DNA of 64,000 nucleotides from a virus. Below are positions 1,762 through 62,580 of the stretch, piece by piece (position 1 is the stretch's first letter; each line of letters opens with the position of its first letter). Location: the IMG/VR virus record IMGVR_UViG_3300045988_174698; one strand, given 5' to 3'. A model generated the notes under the pieces. The model saw only the letters and a program-made list of their open reading frames with translations, was not told the DNA's origin and searched no databases. The translations under genes and the position numbers were made by a program.

Positions 1762-4700
1762 TGGAATGTACATATGAAACTACAATAAACGGTAAGAAGA
1801 TAAAGTTCAGCTCCGAAATGGAGCTGGACAACTTCTTATCAAGTAAATTAGCAGATTATCAAATAAACGAATCAGATTTAACTTTTCAAATTAATCCTAT
1901 AGATAGTACTATAGAGAAGGTAAATGCTATTACAAGTAAAGTTAAAAATGCTTCTATAGAATCTGTAATTATAAATGATGATGGAGATTCAGAAACTATA
2001 CTTAAGATTCCTGACTCAATAGGTACTACTAGATTTATTACATCTAATGGGGATCCTTCTAATATGCAAAAGGAATTAGTTCCTCCTTTTAACTTAAATG
2101 ATTTCTTAAAAAAAGAAAGAGAAAGATTAAGTGCAGAAGGAATGACTAAATCTCAAATTGATTCATATTTAGAAAAGTTACAAAAGTCTTGAACTCAGTT
2201 AACTGATTATGGTACTGAAATACATTCCTTATTTGAAAGTATTATTAATAATACTACATTCAAACCAACTAATTTGAGTGAAGAACAGGTATTACGTTTA
2301 ACTGAAGAATTTAAATCCTTTATTGAAGATATTAAATCTAAATATGGTAAAAATGCTAAAATCTTAACAGAAGTTCCTATAATATCAGATAAAATTCATG
2401 AAGCATATCAATCAGAAGGAATTAAAAGTATTAATGGTAGAATTGATATGCTAGTTATTGACCAGAGAGGATTTGCTCATATTTATGATTTTAAAGTTTC
2501 TAGAAAAGAAGTAGGAATATGAGAGGATACTAGAAACATACAAGGATCAACTACATGGCACTCTACTAAAAAACGTTCTGTGGGGTATCAGTTAGGAATA
2601 TATAAGAATATTCTAGCACAATATGGCATTACTGTAGGAGAAACAAACGTTGTTCCTATTAAAATAGATCCAGAATATAATGAAGATGGAACTATTAATA
2701 AGCTAAATGATGCTTATATTGATTTTACTAAAATAAAAGTAAATCCTAATGCTCCATATACAGAAACTATAAATACTATTCTTCCAGTAAAAACATTACT
2801 TGATGATATTGATCTTATAAACTCAATTCAGGAACCAATGACTAAATTTGTTCCTAATTATGCAGTAGAAACTCAGGTACAGAGAAATACAGTTACTGTG
2901 GATAAATACATTAATAATCCTAGAATTGTACACTATATTGATGACACTGACCCAGAACGAAAGTTTGGAAAATACTGAATTTGGAATAAATATAAGAAGA
3001 ATCGTAAAGTATATGCTAAAACAGAGGAGGAACTCAGAGAAAAAGTACAAGAATTAGTAAATGAAGAAAATAAACATATTCACTCTGAAATGTCTACCTT
3101 AGCGGATACCATTCAACAAATTATTGAAGGATATGGATCCATTGATGACTTAGCTGCTGATAACCCATTTAAGTCTGATTATTGTAAAAAGATATTTAGA
3201 AAATATTTAGTAAAAAAGAGTGAAACTGACTATGGATGAACTTTTCAAAATAATCCTAAATTTATAGCTGCAGGTATATTTGTATTTACTAAGGATGGTA
3301 AAATGGAAATAATATCTGTTACTCATAATGATATTCATTCAGTTGTTAATTTAGGTCTTGGCAAATCTATTCAAGGAGCAACTAAAAAGGATAGTGATAT
3401 TGATAGTCATGTAATAATGCAAGCATCTAACGGTAATATTGACCTTGTTAAAGTTATGTGTTTATTAAATAATATGCCTGAGGTACTTAAAGGATACAAA
3501 GTTAATAAAATAGAATCACATAATATTTGAATTCAAAAAGGTACTGAGACCTATTTAGAAACTCTTTTAGATAATTTTTCTGAATTATGCAGGATACATG
3601 GTATTACCAATAATCTTACATCTCAAAATTTTGCAACAACATTAGAAGCAGCTGTAAATATAATAAGAGATACTGCTGGTGAAGAATTACTATCTCACAT
3701 GGGTAATTGAGAATTTAATTTTAGTCCTAATGATATTGTAAATGGAGTTCCATTCATCTTGCAGAAAATGGAACAACTAAGAAAATTAAAATCTGCAGAT
3801 GGCCTTCGTACTGCTTTAAGAGAAGGCAAATGAAATTTTGATGATCCTATTCAGCTAGCATATATGTTATTAGGCAGAGCACTAAATAAACTTAACGGAT
3901 ACTCTATTTATATTGAACAAGATCCTAAATTGTGAGTAAATTTTTCTAGGGAAGGATGATACACTGGTTCATATGTGAATAGTGCTAGTAACTCTTCTTC
4001 TAAAAATATTCAAACATTAAGTAAAATATTTTCAGTAGCAGAAGCTCATATTAGAAGGAAAGAATTATCATACAAACCTAGGATTAGTAAAGTAGTTAAG
4101 GCTTTATATGAATACAATCACAGAAATAGACTTATTGGAGGTGAGGTTAAGTTTTTTGATAACTTATTTGTTAAGGATACAAACGGTAATATAGATAAAT
4201 CATTTAGACTAAAAAATCCTTCAGATAGTAGTTTGGCTAAGGAAGAATCTGACTTTATTAAGATGTTTCTAGAGATAGTAAATGATTTTAGATTTGATGG
4301 TAATCAAAGTAAAATAGCTAAAGCCATTGAAGACGGTTCTTACTATGAAGTTCCTGTTTCTATGGGAAGTACATCTACTCAAATCCACAATAAAGGATAT
4401 AAACAAGCCTTTACATCTAAATATAATGAAGCTTTAAACTTTCTAAAACTTCTTCCTGAACAAGAGCAACAATTTAGGGAATCAAAAGGAGAGCCAAAGG
4501 TATATAATAAATATAGATTAAATGGACTTAGTAGATCTGATTTAATTGAAAATTATGGGATAGATGGTCTAGAAACTCAACTTGAAGATTTGCTATTAAA
4601 TGTCATCCATACATACACAATGGAAGAAGTAATGAATGAATATCTTCCCAGACTTCAAGGTATTAAGATTGCCTTACAATATCAAACTGGGATGTTTGGA

Positions 4701-15869: not shown

Positions 15870-16328
15870 TTATGTATTCATTTTATAAAACATTTGTATC
15901 TTTTCTTTCAAATCATATAGTATTGCTTTTTCCTGAACAGTATTTACAAATAGTTCGTACATATTATACTTTTCATCATTATATATTAACAACATATCAT
16001 TAATACTTACATCAATATAATTACCTCCTATATAATATCGTAATTTAAAATTAATATATGAATTATTACATTCATACTTAATATCTGTATAACATTCTGA
16101 AGCAATATTTAATAAATTATTAATAAAGTTCTTTGTATAAGATACAACCATTCTATTTGTAATTGGAATCCTACTCTTTGTTCGGTCTTCAATATTTCTA
16201 ATAACATCATTTACAACACTATCCCTTGCTATTATTGTAGCTTGATCTGATTCAATTTTACAAGTTCGAGATTGAAGATTAGAAACAAACAGTTGAATTT
16301 CTTTTAAAGTTAAATTTTCATCATTCAT
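15870..16328 (-). CDS. Hypothetical protein
   Basis: ORF track only. Confidence 0.35.
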   Translation of the reverse strand: MNDENLTLKEIQLFVSNLQSRTCKIESDQATIIARDSVVNDVIRNIEDRTKSRIPITNRMVVSYTKNFINNLLNIASECYTDIKYECNNSYINFKLRYYIGGNYIDVSINDMLLIYNDEKYNMYELFVNTVQEKAILYDLKEKIQMFYKMNT

Positions 16329-18662
16329 TAAAATAATTTTAATTGTTTATGCTTAAACATACATACGATTTTTTGTGCTGCAGCTATATAAAAAGAATAA
16401 TTAATATTAGATGGTAATTCATCAGATTTATTAATAGTATTCAAAATTGTTACGCCAGAGTCAGTTAATAGTTTAATATAGTTATATCGTCTACCATTAG
16501 AATCTATTTTACATTTATATAGCCATGGACCATCAGTAGATATATAATATCGGTTAATACGTTGAATTAACTGACCATCATATTCTACAGAATAATCTTT
16601 ACTAACTTTTTGATAAGTTATAAACTTATTAATATCCTTACAAGCATAAATAGTATCTGCAACAGGAATTCCATCTGCTAAACATTTATTAATAGCTTCG
16701 GGAATAATAACTGCATCCATACCTTTGCCAAGTTTTACCTTGTCGATAAACATACCTTTTGTCTTTAAAAGACTTGGATCTTTTGTTTCAGAATAACCTT
16801 CCTTAATTGCAAGATAGTCATTAATAGCAAACTGATACATTGCTTCAAATCTATCCTCTTCAAGAGTAAGTTTAGTTAAGATTTCCCAATTCTTGCAAAT
16901 TTCTTGTACATTGGTATATTTGTTTCGTTTTAATAGTACAAATAATCCATCAGTATTAGCTTGAATTATTCTACAACCTGCTTGAACTAATTTCTCCGCT
17001 AACATTAATAACATCAATTGTCCATTAATTCTAATTTGCATAACAGCATATGGAGAATAACAAAAATTATGTTCATTTTGTAGATTACCAGACAAACCGT
17101 TTAAAGCAAGTTTTAGAGTTTCATTCTTAACTTTATTTCCATTATGTTTAGCTTCTAATCGTTCATCTCGAATTTGAGAGTAAACTTCAAGGAATTCTTT
17201 ACCAAGATGTTTTGGATAAAATCCATATTGTATAATAATGCTAGGATATAGTGCATATCCATTTTAATTTTCGACTATATCTTAATTTTTATATCTAATT
17301 TGTTCTGAATTTAATTCAATGTAGTGTCATTTAAAGCCTTTATATGAAGCTTTTGTACCTTGACAACAACAATAAATGGATATAACCAAATTAAATTTAT
17401 AAAAATTCGCGGCGTTTCGAATAAAACCTTATAAAGTTTTATCCTACTCTCTTTCGAGATAGTCTGTGAACCTTGATCCTATAAGGATCCTTGGCTGCGG
17501 ATTATAATACTTATTAAGTTTTTACTTTCTCATAAGCGTTATCTTATGTGCTACACTATGTATTACTACTAGCTGCAGTATTAATAAGTTAAATTAAGTT
17601 CCCGCAATTAACCGCGTTTTACTTGCGCCACTATATTAACGCAACATCTATATCAATAAGCATTTCATCTTTTGTAGGTATAATTTCCTCAGGTTTATTA
17701 ACACTATGAATACCTCCAACTCCAACAGTATATTCTAATTCATCAAATATAAAATGTTTCTCATATCCTTTACGTCCAGGAGAAACTGTTTGCTTTTTCA
17801 TATCAGCTAATACACTTTTAAGTATAGGTGATTCAAACTCAATAAAAGGTAAAATAACCTCATTTAATGGAATTAAATCGCAAGGTGACCTCAAATCTTT
17901 AATTTGATTTCAGGTTTGTCCTGTTTTTTCAAGATACTTTTGAGTAATAATTTTCATTCCAATATTAACTCCATCTTTATTAAGTACCTTTACTCCATAC
18001 TCATCTTCAATAGCTATACGTAAATCAATATCCTTTTTACATCTATTTAATAATTCCTCAGTAGAATCAACATCATTAATATTATATTCTATCATTTTAG
18101 GAATTTCAGATACAGGAAGATAATCTTGGAAATCGCCTTCATATTCTTGAACATTTCGAAACTGCATAGTTACTTGCATCTCCTTTAACCCTACTCTCAA
18201 CTTTTGAGAATAAAGCATAGTTAACAAGTCTAATGTTTCAAAATAAATTTTATATTTCCACTTTGTTCAAGAACTAAAATTAGTATCAGTAGATTGAATT
18301 ATTAAATTACTAAGTTTAAATAAAGATGCGCATATCTCTGAATACGACATCTTTAACATTACTTTATGAAAATCAATAATATAATTAATAATAGGATTAT
18401 CATAATGAATATTATTGTATCCACAAAATATTTTATCTGTTTTAAACTGTAAGTTTGTAGTATAGTTTCTTTCTCAAATACCAATTTGAGATTGATTTCT
18501 AACAGTTCAAAATAAATCTACTAACTCTTGTAAATTATTCTTACGTTCAGATATTTCAAAAAATAAGCGTTCTCCTGTTTCTGTATTTTTTACAACACAG
18601 TGAAACACATTAGGAAATATTTCAATATCATAAACGTATACAGTTTTATTTCTAATTAACAT
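16328..18662 (-). CDS. Family B DNA polymerase (with 3'-5' exonuclease), split by a group I intron; exon 1 ~18662..17643, exon 2 ~17261..16328
   Basis: Exo I is VYVYDIEIF and Exo II is GYNNIHYDNPII. Motif A is split: the 5' exon ends ...DIDVA(L) and the 3' exon resumes (GYA)LYPSIII. Motif B-like KLALNGLSGN and motif C-like IIQANTDGLFV follow. The exons are in different frames and separated by a structured non-coding RNA. Confidence 0.65.
17262..17642 (-). mobile_element. ORF-less group I intron (Tetrahymena-like core) in DNA polymerase motif A; boundaries are approximate
   Basis: The minus-strand RNA contains AATTGCGGGAA (P), AATCCGCAGCCAAGGATCC (Q), GGTTCACAGACTATC (R) and TTAAGATATAGTCG (S), in that order. 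Confidence 0.7.
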
Positions 18663-19390
18663 TATACCTCATCATATGTAATTCTAAATATTTCAGGTTT
18701 GCAAGGATAAAATTCATTCCTAACTCCTCTGATAATATAATCTCCAACTGAAGCTTTCATTATACCTTCAAGAGTTGGAATTCCAAGCGAATAATCATTT
18801 TCTTCTTGTGTATTGTTATAACGCAAAAGTTGATTTCCGACAAACTCTTCAACTTCTTCAACATTATTTCCAATATACTGAATAGCCTCTATTTCTACAG
18901 GTTTTTTTCTATATTTCTTTATCATTTATAACGGTATATATTTTATTAAAATCATCTTCATTAATCCAAAATCTGTATCCGTTCCAGTTGCAATAAAAAC
19001 CATTTACTCTTTTATTCTCAGTATGCTGAACTTGCATTTTTAATATTTGATGATTATAATCAAATTTTGTCATTGGCTGAACTTCAACTTCGAGGTTTTT
19101 AACTTTTGCTTTCATTAAAACAAACTGCTAATCATCACACTTAAATATAACAAGTTATCTTGTAAAGCTATATTATTAAGCTCACATAGATTGTTATATA
19201 TCTTTATATAAAGTTTACAAATATTTAACATTTTCCTATTAATTTTAACCAATCTTCCTCTACAAAGTAAGACATTCAACCATATTGATCTAATCAACTC
19301 TCTTCATTAATAAGACAGGCATGTTCATTAAAGTCAGGATGTTCCATTAACTCCTGAGTATACGGTCATTCTACAATTACATATTTCACA

Positions 19391-24474: not shown

Positions 24475-27000
24475 TCAGCCGCAGGACATACAGCTTACAC
24501 ATCCTGAAGTAGCAACCAATGGTTCCCCACATTCTGGACATACGTTTTTATTATCATGATTGGCATTTATTGAAGGTTTTGTATCTGGAACACTAATCTG
24601 CTCTTTTTGAGGAATTTTTACATTATCTTTTATAGCTTCTGTAATTACTCTTGATATAATATCTGGGCATGACAAACCATCAATATTAATTTTTCTAGCC
24701 TTACATGTACTACAAGCAGGACAATTAATTCCTCTTATCTGATCAATTATCTCATCGACTTTAACACCACTTCTAAGATTAAGAGAAATTAATCTTGTTA
24801 CAGCATTCATGTTAGCTTGACAGATACCACCTTTAGATGTATGTGTGAACACTTCTACAAGATTACCCTTATTATCCTTATTGCAAGTTATATATAATGT
24901 TCCACATGCACATTTTTTACAAAAAGTTGCACCATGTGTTGTACCAAGTGTTTTGCGTGAAACTGGTGCAATGGAATCAAATTTGAAAGATTGTTTTTCT
25001 TCTTCAACTTTAATAGATTCCCCCATAATAGCTGGTCTACTATTTTCCCTAAATATCGTTAACCCTTTTAAACCAGCTTTCCATCCAGCTAAATATAATT
25101 TTTCTACATATTCTTGTGATGTATCTTTCTTAAGATTAATTGTAGAACTTATTGCTGTATCAATATACTTTTGTAATGCTGCTTGAAGCTTTATACGATC
25201 ATATGAATCAATATCATATGCTGTTACAAGAATATCATCATCTATAGAAGAATTAGGAACAGAATCAAGATATTCTTTTACAATTTTAGCATAAACATCA
25301 TATACCTTTTCTTCTTTATTAAGAGATACTGTTTTTCTCTGAAATTTCTTCATAAACAGGGGTTCCAAACCGCCCGATACTCCAAGCATAGTTGAAATTG
25401 ACCCAGTTGGTGCTATCGAAAGTAGTGAACAGTTTCTAAGACCAAATTTTTTCATTTTTTCAAGTTCATCGCTTGAAAAGGCTTCTTTCATTATACTAGA
25501 TTCAAATACCTTGTCTGAATAGCCAGGAAATGTTCCAAGTTCTTTAGCAAGATCATATGAGGTAAATACAGAATTTCTGAAAATAAGTCTCATAATATTT
25601 TCTGCAAGTTTTATCGACTCTAGGCTTCCATATTTAATATTCAATTTTATAAACATATCATGAAGTCCCATAATTCCTATGCCAAGGTTTCGGTATTTAG
25701 CAATTTGTTCTTGTTGTTCCTTAAGAGGGTGGTTATGAAGATTTTCATCTATAATCCTATCCATTTCCCTAACAATAATCTTTATATCTGAAACTAGTTC
25801 AGAATAATTAACTGTTGCAAATTTTGTAAAAGGATCTTTTACATATTCAGATAGATTTATTGAGGATAAGTTACAGGACATATTTTTTGGCAAAGGTTGT
25901 TCCTATATATTACCTATTTAGCTTTTTATCTAGATATTCTGGAAGTTTCCTTCATACTCTTTATTGCCATTAGAGATACGTCTGTCAATTCAGACCAGTT
26001 TAGCATATATTTTCACTATAAAGTGTTGGGCACTCTTGGTGGAATTATATTTATTCATCCACTATGCGTTACAATGTTTCATAGCCTATTCGTAATCTAT
26101 GAAATTATCTCGGTATTATCATGCAATAATTTGTTTAGACTTCACCGATTTTACCCAATTTTTTACATGAGGCAAACAATACAACTAACTGATAACCAGC
26201 CATTTACTACCACATGGATTACTAGTATCTATTTGATACTCAGTAATATACTCCATCAAATTATAATTTCTGAATCTATTCATAAACATGACTCCAGGCT
26301 CTGCATGTTCATATGCATTTTTCATCATAAGTTTATAAATTTCAATTGGAGTTATATCATAATCAGGATATCCCTTAAACTTAGATTTAATATGAAGGGT
26401 TATAACTTCTCCTGTCTCATAAAACTTATCTACGGCATTCATAAAGTTATCATCAACTTCCACAGAAAGGTTTGCATTATTGATCTTTCCAAGATTGCTT
26501 TTAATAGTTATGAAATCTTTTATTTGTGGATGATCTGCTGAAAGAGACATCATTAATGCGCCTTTACGTGATCCACCCTGAGAAACAGAAGCAGTTACAG
26601 TATTAAATATCTCCATAAATGGAACAATACCATCTGTTTCATATCCTGAAGAAAGTTTTGATCCTTTTGGACGAATATCAGATAAAGATAATCCTTGACC
26701 TCCCTGAGCTTTGAACGTTAATCCTATATTTTTTGCCGTTTGAAGAATATCATCAAGATTATCTGCAATTTTACCAGACGAGTAGCAATTTGAGTACGAA
26801 GCCTGTCTGTCTGTTTGTCTGTTTGATAGAGTTCTTCCTCCAAATAAGAACTTTTTAGCAACAATTAACTTTCTTAGTTCTTCATTTCCACCACTAACTC
26901 TATCAAACCACTCGTCTAAAGACTCATTATTATATCTATACTTTTTATTTCAAATATCAATTCCTAATTGATCATTATTAAGCCATTCTTCAACAGTCAT
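24475..27000 (-). CDS. Ribonucleotide reductase catalytic subunit (class II-like, C-terminal Cys-rich zinc ribbon), split by a group I intron: exon 1 at 27000..26199, exon 2 at 25912..24475
   Basis: The N-terminus reads ...VPFMEIFNTVTASVSQGGSRKGA. Exon 1 ends ...SNPCG and exon 2 starts EQPLPKNMSCNLSSINL, reconstituting NPCGE...CNLxSINL. PTGSISTMLGVSGGLEP and the C-terminal CPECG...C..C are also RNR features. Confidence 0.7.
25913..26198 (-). mobile_element. ORF-less group I intron (family R, copy 4) at the NPCG|E active-site codons of RNR
   Basis: The 5' exon ends TGT GGT| (T at -1) and the intron ends ...ATATAG| (G). It contains the family blocks ...AGCATATATTTTCAC..., CACTATGCGTTACAATG and CTCGGTATTATCATGC. 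Confidence 0.65.
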
Positions 27001-55006: not shown

Positions 55007-55642
55007 GGTAAAATTTTCTGAGTTATTCTTTTATAGTTATTTAATATTCCTAAGATGTTTGCTCGACCTACAGGATTTGCAGATTGACTTGCAAACTGTG
55101 GAAGGACATATCCTTCATCTATACATTTATCTACAATATACTTGGCTATATCGTATCCAGATTTTTCCTCTCCTAAATCATGATCGAGACAAATTGCATA
55201 AGGTCATTCTTTTTCAAGGAAGTCAATAGCTTCTTGATAAGACTGAGCCCATACAACTTTACAATTTCTGCCAATTGGACTAAAATTCATCCAATCATCT
55301 TCCATTGGATTACGAGCATCATCTATCCAAAAAAGTGTTTTCATAATCATCTAATTCTTAAATGAGAAAGTAAATTAAAAACTATTAATATAATACAAGC
55401 CATAGTTGGAATAAAGTTTAAAGGAGTCCAAATGAGTATTATAAAGACAAAGCTACTAATATATTTATCCTCAGTATAGTATAAATACATATCTCCTAGA
55501 GTAGTTCCTTCTTTAGATTTTATCCTCCAATAAACGTAGAGAATAATATGATTAATAATTATACATACAAACCAGCAATATACAAATTCCATAATTATAT
55601 TTTATTTAAATGAAATTTTCACTACCTAATTATTTATAAAAG

Positions 55643-55714
55643 TATCCCCACCTTGATTCGAACAAGGACCTTTCGGGTAGAAGCCGAAGATTCTCTCCAT
55701 TGAACTATGGGGAC
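55643..55714 (-). tRNA. tRNA-Arg (anticodon UCU)
   Basis: Cloverleaf: the acceptor is GTCCCCA/TGGGGAT, the anticodon arm is TTCGG-CTTCTAC-CCGAA, and the T-arm is CCTTG-TTCGAAT-CAAGG. Confidence 0.7.
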
Positions 55715-57926
55715 TAAATAAATAGTTTATCTTACTATTTATATAAATATTATTATTAAAGTTTTTGAATATTCTTCATAAAAACTCTAGTAATAATATC
55801 TATATTCATCTTACATTGCTCAAATATATCTATTTTATAAGAATCTTTCAGTGGGCTATCCTCTTTGTATGGCCAATGTGCAATTATAAATTCATATTCA
55901 CATCTAGCCCAGTATTGATACATTAATTTTCTCGTTACAAAATCCTTACACTGCTCAAAATTTTCTTTAGAAGGTTTATCTGCTTTATAAGCATCATTAT
56001 ACTTTCTAACTAGGTAAGGCATTATATCATAATAGGTTGGTTTATTTTTATTATATTCTAACCATAATACTTTGAATGGTATCATAAATTTTACTATTAC
56101 AATTTTTCACCTAAATAATTAACTTCTATAACATTTAAATAGTTAACTTTAAATGGATAATCATCAACTATAGTATTATACTGTATACAAACACTTCTTT
56201 TATCTGTATCATGAAAGCAAGATACAACATGATTGAAATTGATATTACAGTTATATCCTTCACCTATAATATTAATAATATTTATCTTTTTCATATTGTA
56301 TTTATGTAAAAGCTCTTAGTAATAAAATCTTAACTTAAAATTCTAAGTGGTTTTTATACTTGGCAGCACATCGAAGAAACCTATATGGATCCTTTATAAA
56401 AATGCGTTTTATATTAGGATTTAAATGGCTAAGATCTGGGTAAAAACAAAAAAAGCCAAACTTACCTGTATCATCTAAAACAACAACAGAGCTCTGGATT
56501 TTATTACCTTTCATGTATATCTGAACGTCGAAATATGGCCTATACCCAAGTTTAACTAGACTGCTGTAAAATAAAAGGAATTGTTTAGATAATATTATAG
56601 TATATGGATATTCTTTCATTATAGTAGTGAATTAATTATTAAGATAGCTTTTTTACTGTCATAACGACCCTTGTAATCAGATTTAGGTATAATATTCAAT
56701 ACCTTATTGACAATATTCTCACCACTAGTAGCATATAATGCTCCACTTGGATGATAAAAATCATGTCGTAAATCTACAACAATTAATGTACGCTTCATAT
56801 AGTTAAATTAAGCATAATAAAATTTGAATAAAGTGTAGACTTTGATCAATATAATATGAAGTAAAATCCTTCATATACTTTTTATAAAGTCCTCTACACT
56901 TCCAGTAATCAATAGCATAATGTCCAACTAGTAACATTATTAATTTCCAAATTGCAGCTAATCCCAAAAAGTGTAATGCAATATAAATACCTAACGCCCA
57001 AATTGCACAATGTACAAACAAGACATAATTATTTTCACATTTATACTTCTTACAAAACTCATCTTGCAACGGATAGTCTAAAACTAAATTTAGAAAGTAA
57101 AGTATAATAAAATTTATCATTATCTAATCTTTATTTTTGAGAACAAACTTCCAATATCTAAGAAGATTTGTATTATCAATACAATAGTATTTACTACAGG
57201 AACCCATATTAAAAGGAAGATCCAATCATTATCTTGATCTACATAAAAAGAATAAAGATCACCTATTGTGCTTCCACACTTGTCTTCTTCAATCCAATCA
57301 AAATACAGGGAAACGTGTAAATAAACAACTCCTATTAGATAAATACCTAAAATAATTAAAAATGTATACATATTAATCCAGTTTTTCCCAGCATTCTTGA
57401 TCAAAATTCCAATGTCTAATATCACAAATATTAAACTCGAAACATAATCCAAGAATGCCGATATTAAAACAAAAGCCTGCATGATCCCCTTTATTATTAT
57501 AACTAATATGGAAATCAAGCAAGCCAAATGTATTGATGTTTATAAACAAATAATAACAAATACCAAATAGTTGAATATCAAAGTCAAAAAATTTTGATAA
57601 CTTAAAGATTTTAAATCTAATAGACATTTCTAATGATTTAAACTCTCCTATAGGGTGCACAAACACCCACCACAAAAAATCTAATTTACAAAGCTTCATA
57701 TTTTTCTTAAATTAGAGTAATAAGCGGTTATAGACTATACTTCTAATTTGGGTTAATAACTAATATTATTGTAATACTTTATATCTTCAATATAAGTTTT
57801 CTGTGTATCTCCAGTAGGCCCTATCATAATATTAGGTTTTATTGTTCCGCATGATATATTAAGTATTACTAAGACTATTATAACTATTTTTACTATTGTT
57901 TTCATCTTTATGTTATTAATGTTTAG

Positions 57927-57999
57927 AGTAGGTAACAGGATTCGAACCTGTGATATAGCTTTTGCAGAGCTGGGCCTTAACCAACTTGGCGATACCTAC
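57927..57999 (-). tRNA. tRNA-Cys (anticodon GCA)
   Basis: The acceptor is GTAGGTA/TACCTAC, the T-arm is CAGG-TTCGAAT-CCTG, and the anticodon loop is CTGCAAA. Confidence 0.65.
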
Positions 58000-58004
58000 A
58001 TGTG

Positions 58005-58095
58005 CGGTAAGGGTGGGATTCCAACCCACGCAGCGATTTCTATACGCTCTAATGCATTTCAAGTGCATCCTCTTAAAGCTCTTGAGTACCTTACC
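58005..58095 (-). tRNA. tRNA-Ser (anticodon UGA), class II with long variable arm
   Basis: The acceptor is GGTAAGG/CCTTACC+G, the anticodon arm is ATGCA-CTTGAAA-TGCAT, the T-arm is GTGGG-TTGGAAT-CCCAC, and the variable arm is 22 nt. Confidence 0.65.
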
Positions 58096-58133
58096 AAATT
58101 TATCTATCTATAAACTTTCTAGTAAGTTATTTG

Positions 58134-58206
58134 CTGGACCGATAGGATTCGAACCCACGTTACCCAAATTAACAGTTTGGTGCTTAAACCACTCAGCCAC
58201 AGTCCA
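58134..58206 (-). tRNA. tRNA-Asn (anticodon GUU)
   Basis: The anticodon arm is CCAAA-CTGTTAA-TTTGG, the T-loop is TTCGAAT, and the acceptor is TGGACTG/CGGTCCA (one G-U pair). Confidence 0.6.
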
Positions 58207-58358
58207 GTACATTTTATATATTTATTACAGATAACTCTGCAAAAGTATTTGCAGAAATATTATAAATTAATTAGTCGAGAATGATAGTAATGCTCTATCC
58301 CCTAGAAATCCCAAATTTCTCGTGCTACTTCCACACCCCATTCTCGATAAACTATCCT

Positions 58359-58592
58359 TTATTCAAGGATAGCGTTTAATTTTGCAAGAACACCTTCGTT
58401 TTTCTTACGAATGTTTTCAAGAGCTTCTTTTTCAGCTTGAGCTGCTTTGATTTCCTCGTCTCTTGCTGCAATTTCTAATTCTGCAGAAGCATTTACTTCT
58501 TTAAGACCATCAATTGCAGTTTTGAAAGCATTTAAAACATTGTCTACTTTCTTAGACAGATCTACAGATGTTTTACTTTTTGAATTAAACAT
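58359..58592 (-). CDS. Small coiled-coil protein
   Basis: ORF track only; the sequence is charged and helical. Confidence 0.3.
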   Translation of the reverse strand: MFNSKSKTSVDLSKKVDNVLNAFKTAIDGLKEVNASAELEIAARDEEIKAAQAEKEALENIRKKNEGVLAKLNAILE

Positions 58593-58639
58593 GTTTAATA
58601 GTTTTTTAAATTAATGCTGTGAGGAGATTTTTGGGACCC

Positions 58640-58711
58640 CCAATAATAGTGAACCATATGAGACTCGAACCCCTCTATTTCCTTGCAAAGGAAATGTGCT
58701 CGCCTTTACAC
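58640..58711 (-). tRNA. tRNA-Ala (anticodon UGC); T-stem and acceptor contain G-U pairs or mismatches
   Basis: The anticodon arm is TTTCC-TTTGCAA-GGAAA, the T-loop is TTCGAGT, and the acceptor is GGGCCAT/ATGGTTC. Confidence 0.5.
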
Positions 58712-58941
58712 TACATGGCCCAAAATACTTAAAGTTTAATACGAAATTGTCTTATTTTATTACATATTTTACAACGCTGTATATAAACTTTTTCAACTTT
58801 AACTGGGCGACTTTGATAGTCATTTTCAAACACCTTTTTTAATTTTTCTTCAACTGTCTCCCAATCATGTACATGAAATTTCAATTCAAACCATTTCTTT
58901 ATAAGTTCTAACATATTATAAAGTTTTTAATAAAATTTTAG

Positions 58942-59024
58942 AGCCTCCTGTCGGACTCGAACCGACGCGTTCAAATGAAGACGGATTACAAAACCGTTGC
59001 AGTCGCCGCTGTGCCAAGGAGGCT
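58942..59024 (-). tRNA. Class-II-like tRNA (83 nt, 15-nt variable region); the anticodon loop TTTTGTAAT is readable as UGU (Thr) or GUA (Tyr)
   Basis: The acceptor is GCCTCCT/AGGAGGC and the T-arm GTCGG-TTCGAGT-CCGAC is perfect. The anticodon stem is ACGG/CCGT. Confidence 0.5.
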
Positions 59025-59998
59025 TATAAACACTATCGTAGTTTGCACGTCTGATTTTTATTGCCACAGAAACTCCATACAAATGATCAATTTATATGTT
59101 AAGAGTTGTTACGCCGCTAATGTCAAATTTAGAAATAACTTATAATGACATAAATTGGTTATAGTTATCCTTGTATCCTATAGAAGTATTCACAAGAAGC
59201 TCGCCATGCATGCTTCTACCAGGCATTGGCACCATAAAGTCATTTCCATATATGTTAGTTAAAACACTTAAATATACTTCTGGAGCAGGAAACATTCCTC
59301 ACTCAAATTTAAGGTAAACCTTATTGTTATAGTCTCTAGCGTTTCTAAGACTTTGTATCTTATTTGGAAATGTAAGATTACCAAATGACTCTGTGGAGAG
59401 TACATTATATCGTTGTCGTAGCTCTTGATATTTTTCTCTAAGATATAAAAGTCTAGATGTGTTTTCCTTAGAAGAATCATAACATTGTATTCTTGTTTTT
59501 ACAGCCAGTGCTTCTAGTTTAATTAAGTGAAGCTGGTGCATAAACTTTTGTCTCTCAACTAGATCATCTGGAACATTATCAAAAGGACATATATCTATAA
59601 AGATCCCTTGGTTAAAGGTAAAATGACCTTCTAAATCCTTTTTGTGAATACATGTTGTGTCACTTCTTCTTAACTTCGTACAGCAATAAAAGGTACTGTC
59701 TGTTCAGTCATTTTGAACAAAATATGGATAATTCAACTCTTTAACTGCACACTCTAAAAATCTATCATAGTCTGTTCTAGGCATAGCAATATCAATATCA
59801 TCGTCCCATGGAATAAATCCACCATGTCTGACAGCACCAAGTAATGTTCCTCCATCTAAATAGTGCTTCAAATGATATTTATCACAGATATTTTTAAACT
59901 GTCATAGCAAATCTAGCTCAACTCCTCAAAGTTCTTTTCTTTCTTTAGACACCAAGAATCCATTTTTTACTTCTGCTTCAAAAAAGTTATCTGGTAAT

Positions 59999-60679
59999 TT
60001 AATATTTAAGTTTACCATTAAATAAAAATTTAGCCAACTCTAAATCATCAGGACTTGTAATTTTAAAATTCATAAGTTCTCCCGAGATATATAAGCATTT
60101 ATTTCCATTATGCTCATATAAGTCAGGTAAAGTCTGATAATTATCTATATTTTTAATCTTTGTAATTATATTATAAAGGCTTCTAAGCATAAAAGTTTCA
60201 GGAGTCTGTAAGATAGCAATTGGCTCCGTTCTTACTCCAGGAACATGTAACGAACTAAGATCTTTTAAAGTGCTAACTGTTGGAATGTATGGAACAACAG
60301 CCGAATTATTAGAATCACAAGAAGACAAACATCTTGTAATTAAATTTGAAGTGAAAAAAGGTCTAACAGAATCATGAAACATAATTTTTTCAATAGAAGG
60401 ATAGTAAGTCATTATGTATTCAAGACCAGCAATTCTAGATCTTAAGCATGAGTACCCTCCTTCTATAATTTTGATATAAGAAAATGGAAAAAGCTTTCGA
60501 AGAATAGGAATATATTCAGGTAGAGTAACTATAACAATTATGTTAAACAGTCTTAACCTAACAAACTTTTCAACAGTCAAATATACTATAGGATGTCCAT
60601 TAATATCTATAAACTGCTTAGGAATATTCATTCCTACCCTAGTTCCTTTTCCAGCAGCATTAATAACTAAGGCATTCAT
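59999..60679 (-). CDS. IspD/TarI-family cytidylyltransferase
   Basis: The N-terminal segment NAAGKGTRVGMNIPKQFIDING and MFHDSVRPF resemble IspD (AAGxGxRMG...PKQYL; VHDAARP). Confidence 0.6.
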   Translation of the reverse strand: MNALVINAAGKGTRVGMNIPKQFIDINGHPIVYLTVEKFVRLRLFNIIVIVTLPEYIPILRKLFPFSYIKIIEGGYSCLRSRIAGLEYIMTYYPSIEKIMFHDSVRPFFTSNLITRCLSSCDSNNSAVVPYIPTVSTLKDLSSLHVPGVRTEPIAILQTPETFMLRSLYNIITKIKNIDNYQTLPDLYEHNGNKCLYISGELMNFKITSPDDLELAKFLFNGKLKY

Positions 60680-60882
60680 ACACTTAATCTTATACTCTTT
60701 TTCTTTTAATACTAGTTAATACACTAAAATAAAGATTCATTTCTATTCCTAAAGTAAAGGATAGTACATAGTACTATTACCACAAACCAGATAAAAAGAA
60801 ATAGTAATATTAGACAGTTAATTAGTACTGTTGCCATAGTATTATTTATTATATGTGAGAAATATTTATTTAATTTTAATAG

Positions 60883-60957
60883 TTGCTCGTTAAAGATTCG
60901 AACTTTAACTTTCACGTTCAAAGCGTGACGTGCACAAACCAAGTACACCAACGAGCA
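60883..60957 (-). tRNA. tRNA-Gln (anticodon UUG)
   Basis: The acceptor is TGCTCGT/ACGAGCA, the anticodon arm is TCACG-CTTTGAA-CGTGA, and the T-arm is TAAAG-TTCGAAT-CTTTA. Confidence 0.6.
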
Positions 60958-61824: not shown

Positions 61825-61845
61825 AAGTTAAAAAGATTTTTGTGT

Positions 61846-62262
61846 GGCTGATGAGAATTGAACTCATGTCCATTCAACTATTAATAATAATTTTATTTAC
61901 ATGCTAGGTTATTTTATTCTCCTATTCCGAAAAATAACAAAACGTATCAGATAGTTTTTATCTTATCTCCTACAACTTATCTGAAATAACTCGGTTCTAT
62001 AATAGTAGTTAGTAATGATTAACTTACATCATCTGCATTAATCTATACAGAAAATCTTTGTCTATTATTTCTCCAGACTTGGATAGCTTAAGCTGCAAAA
62101 GCTACTTGAGCACGCATAGGAGTTGCAAGAGGCATAACCTTGTTAGCCATCTTACGTACAGTGTTCTTAGCGTTTATTTTTTGGTCCAGTTGTTAAAGAA
62201 GTTATACCAGCTCCTGCATGAATTGTTATCAACTATCTTGAATGTCAAAAACCTGGCAGGCC
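61846..62262 (-). ncRNA. ssrA: tmRNA (ssrA)-like RNA; the predicted tag peptide ends ...AQVAFAA*
   Basis: The 5' region is GGGCCTGCCAGGTTTTTGACA (compare GGGGCUGAUUCUGGAUUCGAC). About 92 nt downstream is CAAAAAATAAAC-GCT AAG..., with a tag ORF ending GCTTTTGCAGCTTAA (E. coli GCUUUAGCAGCUUAA). About 250 nt further is the T-arm ATGAG-TTCAATT-CTCAT plus CAGCCAC-A. It lies in a ~700-nt ORF-free gap. Confidence 0.55.
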
Positions 62263-62580
62263 CAAAGACAGGGCAGTTTATACTTATACCCTAGAAGTGG
62301 TCCATAATAGCTAAAGTGTTTAATGCTCTAATTATATAGCAGCGACTAGTATACTGTTATACTTTTCTTGTAACTTCAAGAACTATTACTAAAACTTCAA
62401 TGTGAAGTTCCTAAAAGCCACTTGAGTATTTTTTGGGTTCACTCAAGAATACCGTGTTTTATTGTCGGGATCAAACAACCAAACTACCACCTTTCTATAT
62501 ACAAAGGCAAACTCATACTATCTGGCGTAACCCGTTACTATTATTTATATACCGCTAAGTAACCTAATGCGGTTTACTTT

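What the first reader, a model, noticed from the sequence alone, without database searches (positions are those of the whole stretch)
17262..17642. ORF-less group I intron with a textbook Tetrahymena-like catalytic core interrupting DNA polymerase motif A
The family-B DNA polymerase is in two pieces in different frames.
- The 5' exon ends ...MLIDIDVA(L) with an in-frame stop 2 codons later.
- The 3' exon resumes with (GYA)LYPSIIIQYG, so the DxxSLYPS motif A is only formed by splicing.
- The intervening ~370 nt is GC-richer than its surroundings.
- On the minus strand it contains, in order, AAUUGCGGGAA (P), AAUCCGCAGCCAAGGAUCC (Q), GGUUCACAGACUAUC (R) and UUAAGAUAUAGUCG (S), very close to the Tetrahymena LSU intron consensus.
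- This core is a different intron family from the other five introns in the window.
Basis: partly seen in the sequence, partly recalled or inferred. Interest (0 to 1): 0.6.

Follow-up and report, generated by a model that had tools for sequence, protein, structure and literature searches.

The report
Endonuclease-less group I intron in crAss-phage polymerase
[quoted passage not shown] It is a real but ordinary kind of element for these phages, and its only unusual feature is that it has very recently lost its homing-endonuclease gene.

Summary
Window 17638..17254 (minus strand, 385 nt) matches Rfam RF00028 over the full model (37.8 bits, E=1.4e-7; below the gathering score of 50).

The window is a crAss-like phage of the family Suoliviridae (delta group).

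- **Splice junction.** Splicing after U17639 and after G17254 rebuilds a Ser codon (T|CA) and gives DIDVASLYPS. All 80 closest uninterrupted PolB genes read D[IV]DV[AQE]SLYPS at this site.
- **Guide sequence.** It pairs with both exons: P1 is UUGCGU/GCGCAA with U•G at the cleavage site, and P10 is 8 perfect base pairs.
- **Structure.** On 21 related introns the proposed structure has 90% of cells paired (32-41% when slid). Of 78 pairs, 36 show compensatory changes.
- **Subgroup.** P7.1-GUA-P7.2 and the absence of P2 place it in IA2, the usual phage type, not Tetrahymena's IC1.
- **History.** It is a 659-nt deletion derivative of a 1044-nt intron that carries a GIY-YIG endonuclease. The retained parts are 384/385 identical to that intron, while the flanking exons are only 77-81% identical. 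This indicates recent lateral transfer followed by loss of the endonuclease gene.
- **Other "breaks".** The remaining interruptions in the polymerase are four TGA=Trp codons.

Group I introns in delta-group crAss PolB are already published (Yutin 2021). This is a new member of a known kind.

The parts
17639..18662 (-). PolB exon 1 (codons 1-341 plus the first base of Ser342). It contains four in-frame TGA codons read as Trp, at 18509-18507, 18476-18474, 18269-18267 and 17912-17910.
   Evidence: tblastn of cr114_1 and cr109_1 PolB covers one continuous frame. Two of the TGAs align with conserved W.
17254..17638 (-). Group I intron, subgroup IA2, 385 nt. The last exon base is U17639 and the last intron base is G17254 (omega-G).
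   Evidence: RF00028 at 37.8 bits, E=1.4e-7. Only this junction restores DIDVASLYPS. Covariation on 21 sequences. MFE z=-3.88.
16328..17253 (-). PolB exon 2 (CA of Ser342 through to stop TAA 16330-16328). The spliced product is 649 aa.
   Evidence: The closest IMG/VR relatives are uninterrupted 649-aa genes. phrog_1252 DNA polymerase, E=6.8e-147.
17623..17636 (-). Internal guide sequence. AUAUAGUG (17636-17629) pairs with the 3' exon CACUAUAU (17253-17246) to form P10. The overlapping UGGCGCAA (17630-17623) pairs with the 5' exon UUGCGU plus intron UA (17644-17637) to form P1, with U17639•G at the cleavage site.
   Evidence: Read directly from the sequence. P10 varies compatibly in L029 and L013.
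17470..17616 (-). P3 5' strand (17616-17610) and J3/4. P4 (17606-17601 with 17501-17496). P5 and P5a. A three-way-junction extension made of the P5b hairpin with a GUAA loop (17576-17550) and the P5c hairpin with the invariant loop GAUAACGC (17548-17531). P6/P6a (17495-17470).
   Evidence: Found independently by RNAalifold and by single-sequence MFE folding. Helices 2-9 are 79-100% paired with many double changes.
17408..17466 (-). P7 5' strand CAGACUA (17466-17460, guanosine-binding helix). P7.1 UCUC-GAAA-GAGA (17459-17448). GUA linker (17447-17445). P7.2 (17444-17419). P3 3' strand (17416-17408).
   Evidence: P7 C-G changes to U-A between groups. P3 has three compensatory pairs. The IA2 criterion is taken from PMC3428280.
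17285..17406 (-). P8: stem AUUUUUAUA (17406-17398) with UAUAAAAAU (17293-17285), and the loop between them. The deletion junction lies between 17371 and 17370.
   Evidence: Compared with the 1044-nt intron of L036, 659 nt are missing here. P8 covaries between groups A and B.
17282..17370 (-). Remnant of the GIY-YIG homing-endonuclease gene: its last ~29 codons (..CCQGTKASYKGFKWHYIELNSEQIRYKN) and the stop TAA at 17284-17282. It runs through the P8 3' strand into J8/7.
   Evidence: tblastn of the 239-aa L036 endonuclease finds only its C-terminus in the window. The intron has no start codon or ORF.
17254..17283 (-). J8/7 and the P7 3' strand AAGAUAUAGUCG (17283-17272), then an 18-nt tail ending in omega-G 17254. 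There is no P9 hairpin.

Best explanation
The window comes from a crAss-like phage of the family Suoliviridae (delta group). Its family-B-type DNA polymerase gene on the minus strand carries one self-splicing group I intron of subgroup IA2, at 17638..17254.

**How it works (inferred from the anatomy)**
1. In the pre-mRNA the guide sequence near the intron's 5' end pairs with the last six exon bases (P1, U17639•G).
2. A free guanosine bound in the P7 pocket attacks after U17639.
3. The terminal G17254 then enters the same pocket.
4. An 8-bp P10 helix aligns the 3' exon.
5. The exons are joined, rebuilding the Ser codon T|CA and the catalytic motif A, DIDVASLYPS.
6. Unspliced RNA stops two codons into the intron and would give a dead 343-residue fragment.
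7. Translating the 649-aa product also requires reading four TGA codons in exon 1 as Trp.

**History (inferred)**
- The intron entered this polymerase gene recently by endonuclease-driven homing from a phage with an L036-like allele. That allele is a 1044-nt intron with a 239-aa GIY-YIG endonuclease in the P8 loop.
- The transfer also carried over three synonymous exon bases that pair with the guide sequence.
- A 659-nt deletion then removed most of the endonuclease gene.

The result is a splicing-competent but no longer self-mobile intron. It still makes the gene immune to the cognate endonuclease.
For: **Shown here**
- *Covariance model.* RF00028 matches the full model at E=1.4e-7.
- *Junction.* cr114_1 and cr109_1 PolB are uninterrupted and read DIDVASLYPS across the site. 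All 80 best IMG/VR relatives read D[IV]DV[AQE]SLYPS without an insert. Only the 17639|17253 ligation reproduces this.
- *Guide pairing.* P1 and the 8-bp P10 are complementary to the ligated exons.
- *Intron family.* There are 34 related introns in IMG/VR.
- *Covariation.* The pseudoknotted P3-P8 structure has 90.3% of cells paired, against 32-41% when slid. Of 78 pairs, 36 show changes on both sides. The covariation score is 0.385 against 0.139 in shuffles (0/500).
- *Independent folding.* Single-sequence MFE folding recovers the same hairpins, z=-3.88.
- *Subgroup.* P7.1-GUA-P7.2 is present, which is the published IA2 criterion (PMC3428280).
- *Transfer and deletion.* Intron identity to L036 is 267/268 plus 117/117, while the flanking exons are 77% and 81% identical. 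A 659-nt gap coincides with the endonuclease ORF.
- *Co-conversion.* The intron-less allele L046 differs from the intron-bearing L036 at the site only by GTA GCT TCT versus GTT GCG TCA.
- *Context.* Suoliviridae assignment. Published report of group I introns in delta-group PolB (PMC7886860).
Against: - The Rfam score (37.8) is below the curated gathering score (50). The hit disappears in whole-window scans.
- No RNA data exist, so splicing itself is inferred.
- There is no P9 hairpin and no P2. The P8 loop now holds 104 nt of non-native junction sequence, which could in principle slow folding.
- The exact deletion junction was not found in IMG/VR or JGI metagenomes. This allele therefore rests on one assembly.
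- Pfam does not recognise the polymerase. Family B rests on the motifs, a weak hit to E. coli Pol II (E=0.03) and the literature.
Confidence: 0.88

Rival explanations
1. The intron is a decaying relic that no longer splices, or splices poorly. This polymerase allele would then be a pseudogene or come from a defective genome.
For: The score is below the Rfam gathering threshold. The endonuclease deletion is recent, so selection has had little time to act. The allele was not seen in other assemblies. No P9 hairpin is present.
Against: Every core helix is intact. The retained 385 nt differ at one base from an endonuclease-bearing intron that sits in intact polymerase genes. The deletion is confined to the P8 loop, the normal place for an ORF, and the 9-bp P8 stem is kept. 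The sister introns also lack P9. The exons are free of frameshifts and of stops other than TGA.
Confidence: 0.05
2. The short (ORF-less) form is an assembly artefact. The real phage would carry the full 1044-nt endonuclease-containing intron.
For: The deletion junction is unique to this window. The full-length form is the only one seen in the other group-A loci whose whole intron is stored (L013, L016, L029, L036).
Against: No repeat that could collapse an assembly flanks the junction (sequence). Loss of the endonuclease gene is an expected stage of the homing cycle. This cannot be tested without reads.
Confidence: 0.05
3. The two polymerase pieces are translated separately and act as subunits of a split polymerase. 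The sequence between them would be a spacer, not an intron.
For: Split polymerase genes exist in some phages (my own knowledge, not checked here). Several database records annotate crAss PolB in two CDS, for example cr53_1.
Against: Exon 2 has no start codon near its 5' end; the first in-frame start listed is TTG at 17095, past motif A. Motif A would be cut within a codon. The spacer has a covarying ribozyme fold and guide pairings to both exons.
Confidence: 0.02

Closest known systems
Group I introns in PolB, MCP, primase and ATP_43b of delta-group crAss-like phages (Yutin et al. 2021, PMC7886860)
   Same: Same phage group, same host gene, same class of element. TGA=Trp recoding is also described there.
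   Different: Those introns were found through their endonuclease domains, so ORF-less copies such as this one would have been missed. No RNA structure, subgroup or exact insertion site is given in the text I read.
IA2 introns in phage DNA polymerase genes (SPO1/SP82 I-HmuI/II, Bastille, T7-like PhiI/W31, cyanophage Pf-WMP3; PMC3428280)
   Same: Subgroup IA2 with P7.1 and P7.2 joined by G-U-A. P2 can be absent. Insertion in a conserved polymerase motif, with U(-1)•G and omega-G.
   Different: According to PMC3428280 those introns carry HNH endonucleases, and in Pf-WMP3, PhiI and W31 the ORF sits in P6a. From my own knowledge, not checked here, the host genes are family A polymerases. This family is in a family-B-type polymerase, its endonuclease is GIY-YIG in P8, and it has a P5 three-way-junction extension.
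1044-nt GIY-YIG intron of IMG/VR contig IMGVR_UViG_3300030381_000103 (locus L036) and relatives L029, L013, L016
   Same: Same insertion site, same guide sequence, and 384/385 identity in the retained parts.
   Different: The window copy lacks 659 nt, which is codons 1-~210 of the endonuclease. The host polymerase exons are only 77-81% identical.
Tetrahymena LSU rRNA intron (IC1)
   Same: The P, Q, R and S core sequences and the P7 guanosine-binding helix are near-identical to the general consensus. A P5 extension with a GNRA loop is present.
   Different: Tetrahymena has no P7.1/P7.2 and does have P2, P2.1, P9, P9.1 and P9.2. It sits in rRNA rather than a protein gene. (The Tetrahymena features are from my own knowledge.)
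T4 nrdB intron with a truncated endonuclease gene (I-TevIII), as an example of the homing cycle
   Same: A phage IA2 intron that still splices after its endonuclease gene has decayed.
   Different: Different gene, different endonuclease family, different phage group. This comparison rests on my own knowledge and was not tested here.

Membership tests
Group I intron (Rfam RF00028) | Covariance-model match at or above the curated gathering score | tested here: not met
   37.8 bits against a gathering score of 50. Still E=1.4e-7 over the full model 1-253. The shortfall comes from long insertions (P5 extension, P7.1/7.2, P8 loop) and missing P2/P9.
Group I intron (Rfam RF00028) | Conserved core helices P3-P8 with the P3/P7 pseudoknot, supported by covariation | tested here: met
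   78 pairs: 90.3% paired, 36 with changes on both sides, 0/500 shuffles reach the score, slid controls 32-41%.
Group I intron (Rfam RF00028) | P1 with U•G at the 5' splice site, terminal G at the 3' end, and P10 pairing to the 3' exon | tested here: met
   UUGCGU/GCGCAA with U17639•G. G17254. P10 AUAUAGUG/CACUAUAU, 8 bp. The same rules hold in all 16 group A and B introns.
Group I intron (Rfam RF00028) | Guanosine-dependent self-splicing | not testable with these tools
   Needs an in vitro transcript plus GTP, or RNA from infected cells.
Subgroup IA2 | P7.1 and P7.2 between P7 and P3', linked by G-U-A (criterion as stated in PMC3428280) | tested here: met
   UCUCGAAAGAGA-GUA-GGAUAAAAC...GUUUUAUUC at 17459-17419. 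The GUA is invariant in 21 sequences. Both hairpins covary.
Subgroup IC1 (Tetrahymena type) | P2/P2.1 and P9.1/P9.2 peripheral helices and no P7.1/P7.2 (my own knowledge of Michel & Westhof classes) | tested here: not met
   Only 6 nt lie between P1 and P3. Only 18 nt follow P7. P7.1/P7.2 are present.
Family B DNA polymerase | Motif A DxxSLYPS, motif B KxxxNxxYG-like, motif C DTD-like | tested here: met
   DVASLYPS after splicing, KLALNGLSG, and NTDG. Motifs B and C align with E. coli Pol II (3k57, E=0.03).
Family B DNA polymerase | Match to the Pfam family-B models | tested here: not met
   No Pfam family at E<=0.01. phrog_1252 'DNA polymerase' at E=6.8e-147. Called PolB in PMC7886860.
Mobile (homing) group I intron | Intact intron-encoded homing endonuclease | tested here: not met
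   Only the last ~29 codons remain. No ORF. No second copy of the endonuclease in the window.

The most novel reading that the evidence does not exclude
The most novel reading still open is that the endonuclease-less intron is not just decay. It would be kept because it immunises the polymerase gene against the cognate GIY-YIG endonuclease carried by co-infecting crAss-like phages.

Under this reading the ribozyme family would be a distinct, modular lineage. Its features are an IA2 core, a P5 three-way junction with an invariant GAUAACGC loop, and no P2 or P9. It would move between unrelated phages and genes while swapping endonuclease cargo: GIY-YIG in P8 in crAss PolB, and LAGLIDADG after P9 in a helicase of GC-rich phages.
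Probability: 0.2. Interest if true: 0.45.

Novelty: new member of a known kind. Interest (0 to 1): 0.3.

Why it matters
**Annotation.** The polymerase of this phage is one 649-aa protein. Gene callers using the standard code and no intron model would split it into five or more fragments.

**Biology.** The finding gives a dated snapshot of the homing cycle in the most abundant human gut phages. An intron has just crossed between polymerases about 20% diverged and has then lost its endonuclease gene. It also shows that surveys which find introns through endonuclease domains undercount them.

This does not change what is known about how group I introns work.

Tried and rejected
- **Rfam scans.** The whole-window scans at gathering and at E<=0.1 found no intron. 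The hit only appears in a 2-kb scan, so absence of hits in large scans is not informative.
- **Rfam's own alignment ends (17647/17259).** These would give DVALYALYPS. I rejected them because no homologue has that insert and P10 does not fit.
- **Further introns in the polymerase.** I first suspected introns at 18507-18227 and at 17910. They are in-frame TGA codons in one continuous frame.
- **Sister introns (group B) splice site.** I first inferred a non-canonical G at the 5' splice site. Allowing either U or C as the first base of the 3' exon gives a canonical U(-1)/G(omega) junction in all of them.
- **RNAalifold without pseudoknots.** It mis-pairs P7. I replaced it with a hand-written structure counted.
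- **P3 in group C.** Its 3' strand is ambiguous, and this lowers the paired percentage for helix 1.
- **Searches for the deletion junction.** IMG/VR gave none, and JGI metagenomes gave one chance 24-mer.
- **Pfam on the polymerase.** Nothing found.
- **blastn of the intron against the phage records (INPHARED).** Only one related intron was found (MT839577.1, group B), plus short core matches to many unrelated phage introns.
- **RF00028 on the RNR insert.** No hit even in a 1.1-kb scan.

Full report
**What is there**

On the minus strand, the ORF ending ...EMLIDIDVALI* (17894..17631) and the frame NGYALYPSIIIQYG... (from 17263) are separated by a stretch that holds, in order, AAUUGCGGGAA, AAUCCGCAGCC, GUUCACAGACUA and AAGAUAUAGUCG. 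A 2-kb Rfam scan gives RF00028 (group I intron) at 17259-17647 on the minus strand, over model positions 1-253, at 37.8 bits and E=1.4e-7. The score is below the curated gathering score of 50. The hit is lost to the speed filters when the whole 64 kb is scanned. The four elements are near-identical to the RF00028 consensus. No other site in the window has them.

**What genome this is**

blastn of 16300-18700 against the phage records finds only crAss-like phages at 67-74% identity, with 'DNA polymerase' under the matches. The annotated records checked belong to Crassvirales, family Suoliviridae. This is the 'delta group' of Yutin et al. 2021.

The polymerases of cr114_1 (665 aa) and cr109_1 (659 aa) are uninterrupted. 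tblastn of these against the window shows two things:
- Everything from 18662 to 17639 is one continuous frame. Its four 'stops' are all TGA, and two of them align with conserved Trp.
- The homologues read ...EMLIDIDVASLYPSMLIEYGFYPKH... straight across the gap.

The gene therefore has exactly one insert, and TGA is read as Trp. Both features are already described for this phage group (PMC7886860).

**Exact junction**

The 5' exon ends GAU GUU GCG U (U17639). The insert ends ...GGAUAUG (G17254). The 3' exon starts CA CUA UAU CCU AGC. Ligation gives GCG UCA CUA, which is DIDVASLYPSIIIQYG, in a 649-aa protein.

- All 80 best IMG/VR relatives are uninterrupted here and read D[IV]DV[AQE]SLYPS.
- The closest relatives (80% aa identity) are exactly 649 aa long.
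- The alternative ends suggested by the Rfam alignment are also in frame but would insert two residues (DVALYALYPS) that no homologue has.
- The guide sequence settles the question. Intron bases 3-10, AUAUAGUG, are the perfect complement of the first eight bases of the 3' exon (P10). Bases 11-16, GCGCAA, pair with the last six exon bases UUGCGU, with U17639•G at the cleavage site (P1).

**The RNA fold is under selection**

A pattern drawn from the core (AATTGCGGGAA..GATAACGC..AATCCGCAGCC) finds 34 loci in IMG/VR. They fall into three groups:
- **Group A:** the same site in crAss PolB as the window.
- **Group B:** crAss PolB, 5 nt upstream.
- **Group C:** a DExx helicase gene of GC-rich phages.

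I aligned 21 distinct sequences and counted a hand-written structure containing P3, P4, P5, P5a, P5b, P5c, P6, P6a, P7, P7.1, P7.2 and P8, with P3 and P7 as a pseudoknot.

| Measure | Observed | Control |
|---|---|---|
| Cells forming a standard pair | 90.3% | 32-41% with partners slid by 1-3 columns |
| Pairs with changes on both sides | 36 of 78 | |
| Covariation score | 0.385 | 0.139 in shuffles (0/500 reach it) |

- P7 itself switches C-G to U-A between groups.
- P3 has three compensatory pairs.
- P8 is AUUUUUAUA/UAUAAAAAU in group A and AUUUGGCA/UGCCAAAU in group B.
- Single-sequence folding of the 385 nt recovers the same hairpins, with z=-3.88.

**Subgroup**

Between the P7 5' strand and the P3 3' strand lie two hairpins joined by G-U-A. 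They are UCUC-GAAA-GAGA, then GUA, then GGAUAAAAC...GUUUUAUUC (17459-17419). The GUA is invariant in all 21 sequences.

'P7.1 and P7.2 linked by a G-U-A sequence' is the published criterion for subgroup IA2. IA2 introns in phage polymerase genes can lack P2 (PMC3428280). In the window only 6 nt separate P1 from P3, so there is no P2, and only 18 nt follow P7, so there is no P9 hairpin.

The intron is therefore the usual phage type. It is not Tetrahymena's IC1, although the core sequences are shared. One less common feature is a P5 extension that forms a three-way junction. One arm ends in a GNRA loop (GUAA in groups A and B, GAAA in group C). The other ends in an invariant GAUAACGC loop.

**Why it is ORF-less**

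Group A introns in other contigs are 1040-1044 nt long and carry a 239-aa GIY-YIG endonuclease in the P8 loop. The homologous ORF of the group B intron matches Pfam PF01541; the L036 ORF shows the GIY..YVG motif and is 39% identical to it. The L036 gene itself contains four TGA codons at Trp-like positions.

- The window intron equals the L036 intron minus 659 nt. The first 268 nt are 267/268 identical and the last 117 nt are 117/117 identical.
- The junction lies between 17371 and 17370.
- What remains of the gene is its last ~29 codons and its stop. These overlap the P8 3' strand and J8/7.
- No ORF with a start codon is left, under either genetic code.
- No second copy of the endonuclease is present in the window.

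**Lateral transfer**

The 300 nt of exon on either side of the intron are only 77% and 81% identical between the window and L036, whereas the intron is 99.7% identical. L046 is an intron-less allele of the L036-type polymerase. It differs from L036 around the site only by GTA GCT TCT versus GTT GCG TCA. These three synonymous changes are exactly the bases that pair with the guide sequence, and the window shares them. The window's closest intron-less relatives do not. This pattern is what endonuclease-driven homing with a short co-conversion tract produces. That interpretation is an inference from the established homing model (review: PMC3984707).

**Mechanism**

The anatomy is shown: P1, P10, the P7 pocket identical to the consensus, omega-G, and covarying helices. 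Two-step guanosine-initiated splicing is inferred from that anatomy, and no RNA evidence is available. Unspliced RNA would terminate at UAG two codons into the intron. The insertion in the codons of motif A fits the known preference of homing endonucleases for sequences that encode critical residues (PMC3984707).

**Weak points**

- The Rfam score is below the gathering threshold.
- The short allele rests on a single assembly. Its junction is absent from IMG/VR and from JGI metagenomes, apart from one chance 24-mer.
- The polymerase is not recognised by Pfam. It is phrog_1252 at E=6.8e-147 and aligns weakly with E. coli Pol II over motifs B and C.
- His 'five other introns' were not verified. 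I found one further insert (RNR gene, 26208..25903) with group-I-like ends but no RF00028 similarity.

**Verdict**

This is a genuine subgroup IA2 group I intron in PolB motif A of a delta-group crAss-like phage. It was recently acquired and has just lost its endonuclease gene. Group I introns in PolB of this phage group are published (PMC7886860), so it is a new member of a known kind. Interest is modest.

Noticed in passing
window 18509-18507, 18476-18474, 18269-18267, 17912-17910 (minus strand); tRNAs at 55642-60957: Four in-frame TGA codons lie in PolB exon 1 and none in exon 2. Two of them align with conserved Trp, so TGA is read as Trp in a replication gene, not only in late genes. None of the 7 tRNAs in the window has a UCA anticodon (they are Arg-TCT, Cys, Ser-TGA, Asn, Ala, Thr, Gln-TTG).
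   Followed up: partly
window 26208..25903 (minus strand): A 306-nt insert splits a ribonucleotide reductase gene exactly at NPCG|EQPLP. The exon ends in U and the insert ends in G, as in group I introns. RF00028 gives no hit even in a 1.1-kb scan at E<=10. It may be a divergent intron of another type.
   Followed up: partly
window 61842-62263 (minus strand): Rfam tmRNA (RF00023) match at 52.3 bits (gathering score 47), full length. ARAGORN does not call it. A phage-borne tmRNA-like gene next to the tRNA cluster.
   Followed up: no
L004 (MT839577.1) 1696-2650; L008, L009, L011, L018, L019, L021, L022, L026, L031, L033, L034, L037: A sister lineage of the same intron, 949-952 nt long, with a GIY-YIG endonuclease 39% identical to the L036 one. 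It sits 5 nt upstream in the same motif (GAU GU|N GCN) and its guide sequence is retargeted (GCAUC). P1 covaries there: GAU/AUC becomes GAC/GUC in L022.
   Followed up: partly
L006, L010, L012, L014, L015, L017, L020, L023-L025, L028, L030, L032, L035, L038: The same ribozyme family, including the invariant GAUAACGC loop, sits in a DExx-box helicase gene (..LFIVG|) of GC-rich phages with 67-126 kb contigs. Here a LAGLIDADG-type ORF follows a P9 hairpin instead of a GIY-YIG ORF in P8.
   Followed up: partly
L002 (cr53_1) 2808-3582; L005 (MT835588.1) 2221-3056: A different insert lies at PolB residue 412/413 (AVMQI|RINGQ). In cr53_1 it holds an annotated HNH endonuclease, and the database record annotates the polymerase as two CDS.
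   Followed up: no
window 17260-17255 with 17249-17244 (minus strand); L013 and L016 equivalents: The last intron bases GGAUAU can pair with AUAUCC in the 3' exon. This forms a hairpin with the 3' splice site in its loop and competes with P10. In L013 and L016 both sides change together (GGGUAU/AUACCC). An AUAUCC also occurs in the P8 loop. The role is unknown.
   Followed up: no
window 17644-17639 and 17253-17246; L046 compared with L036: Intron-bearing alleles share three synonymous exon changes (GTA GCT TCT to GTT GCG TCA) next to the insertion site. These are the bases that pair with the guide sequence. This looks like a short co-conversion tract or selection for P1/P10 pairing.
   Followed up: yes
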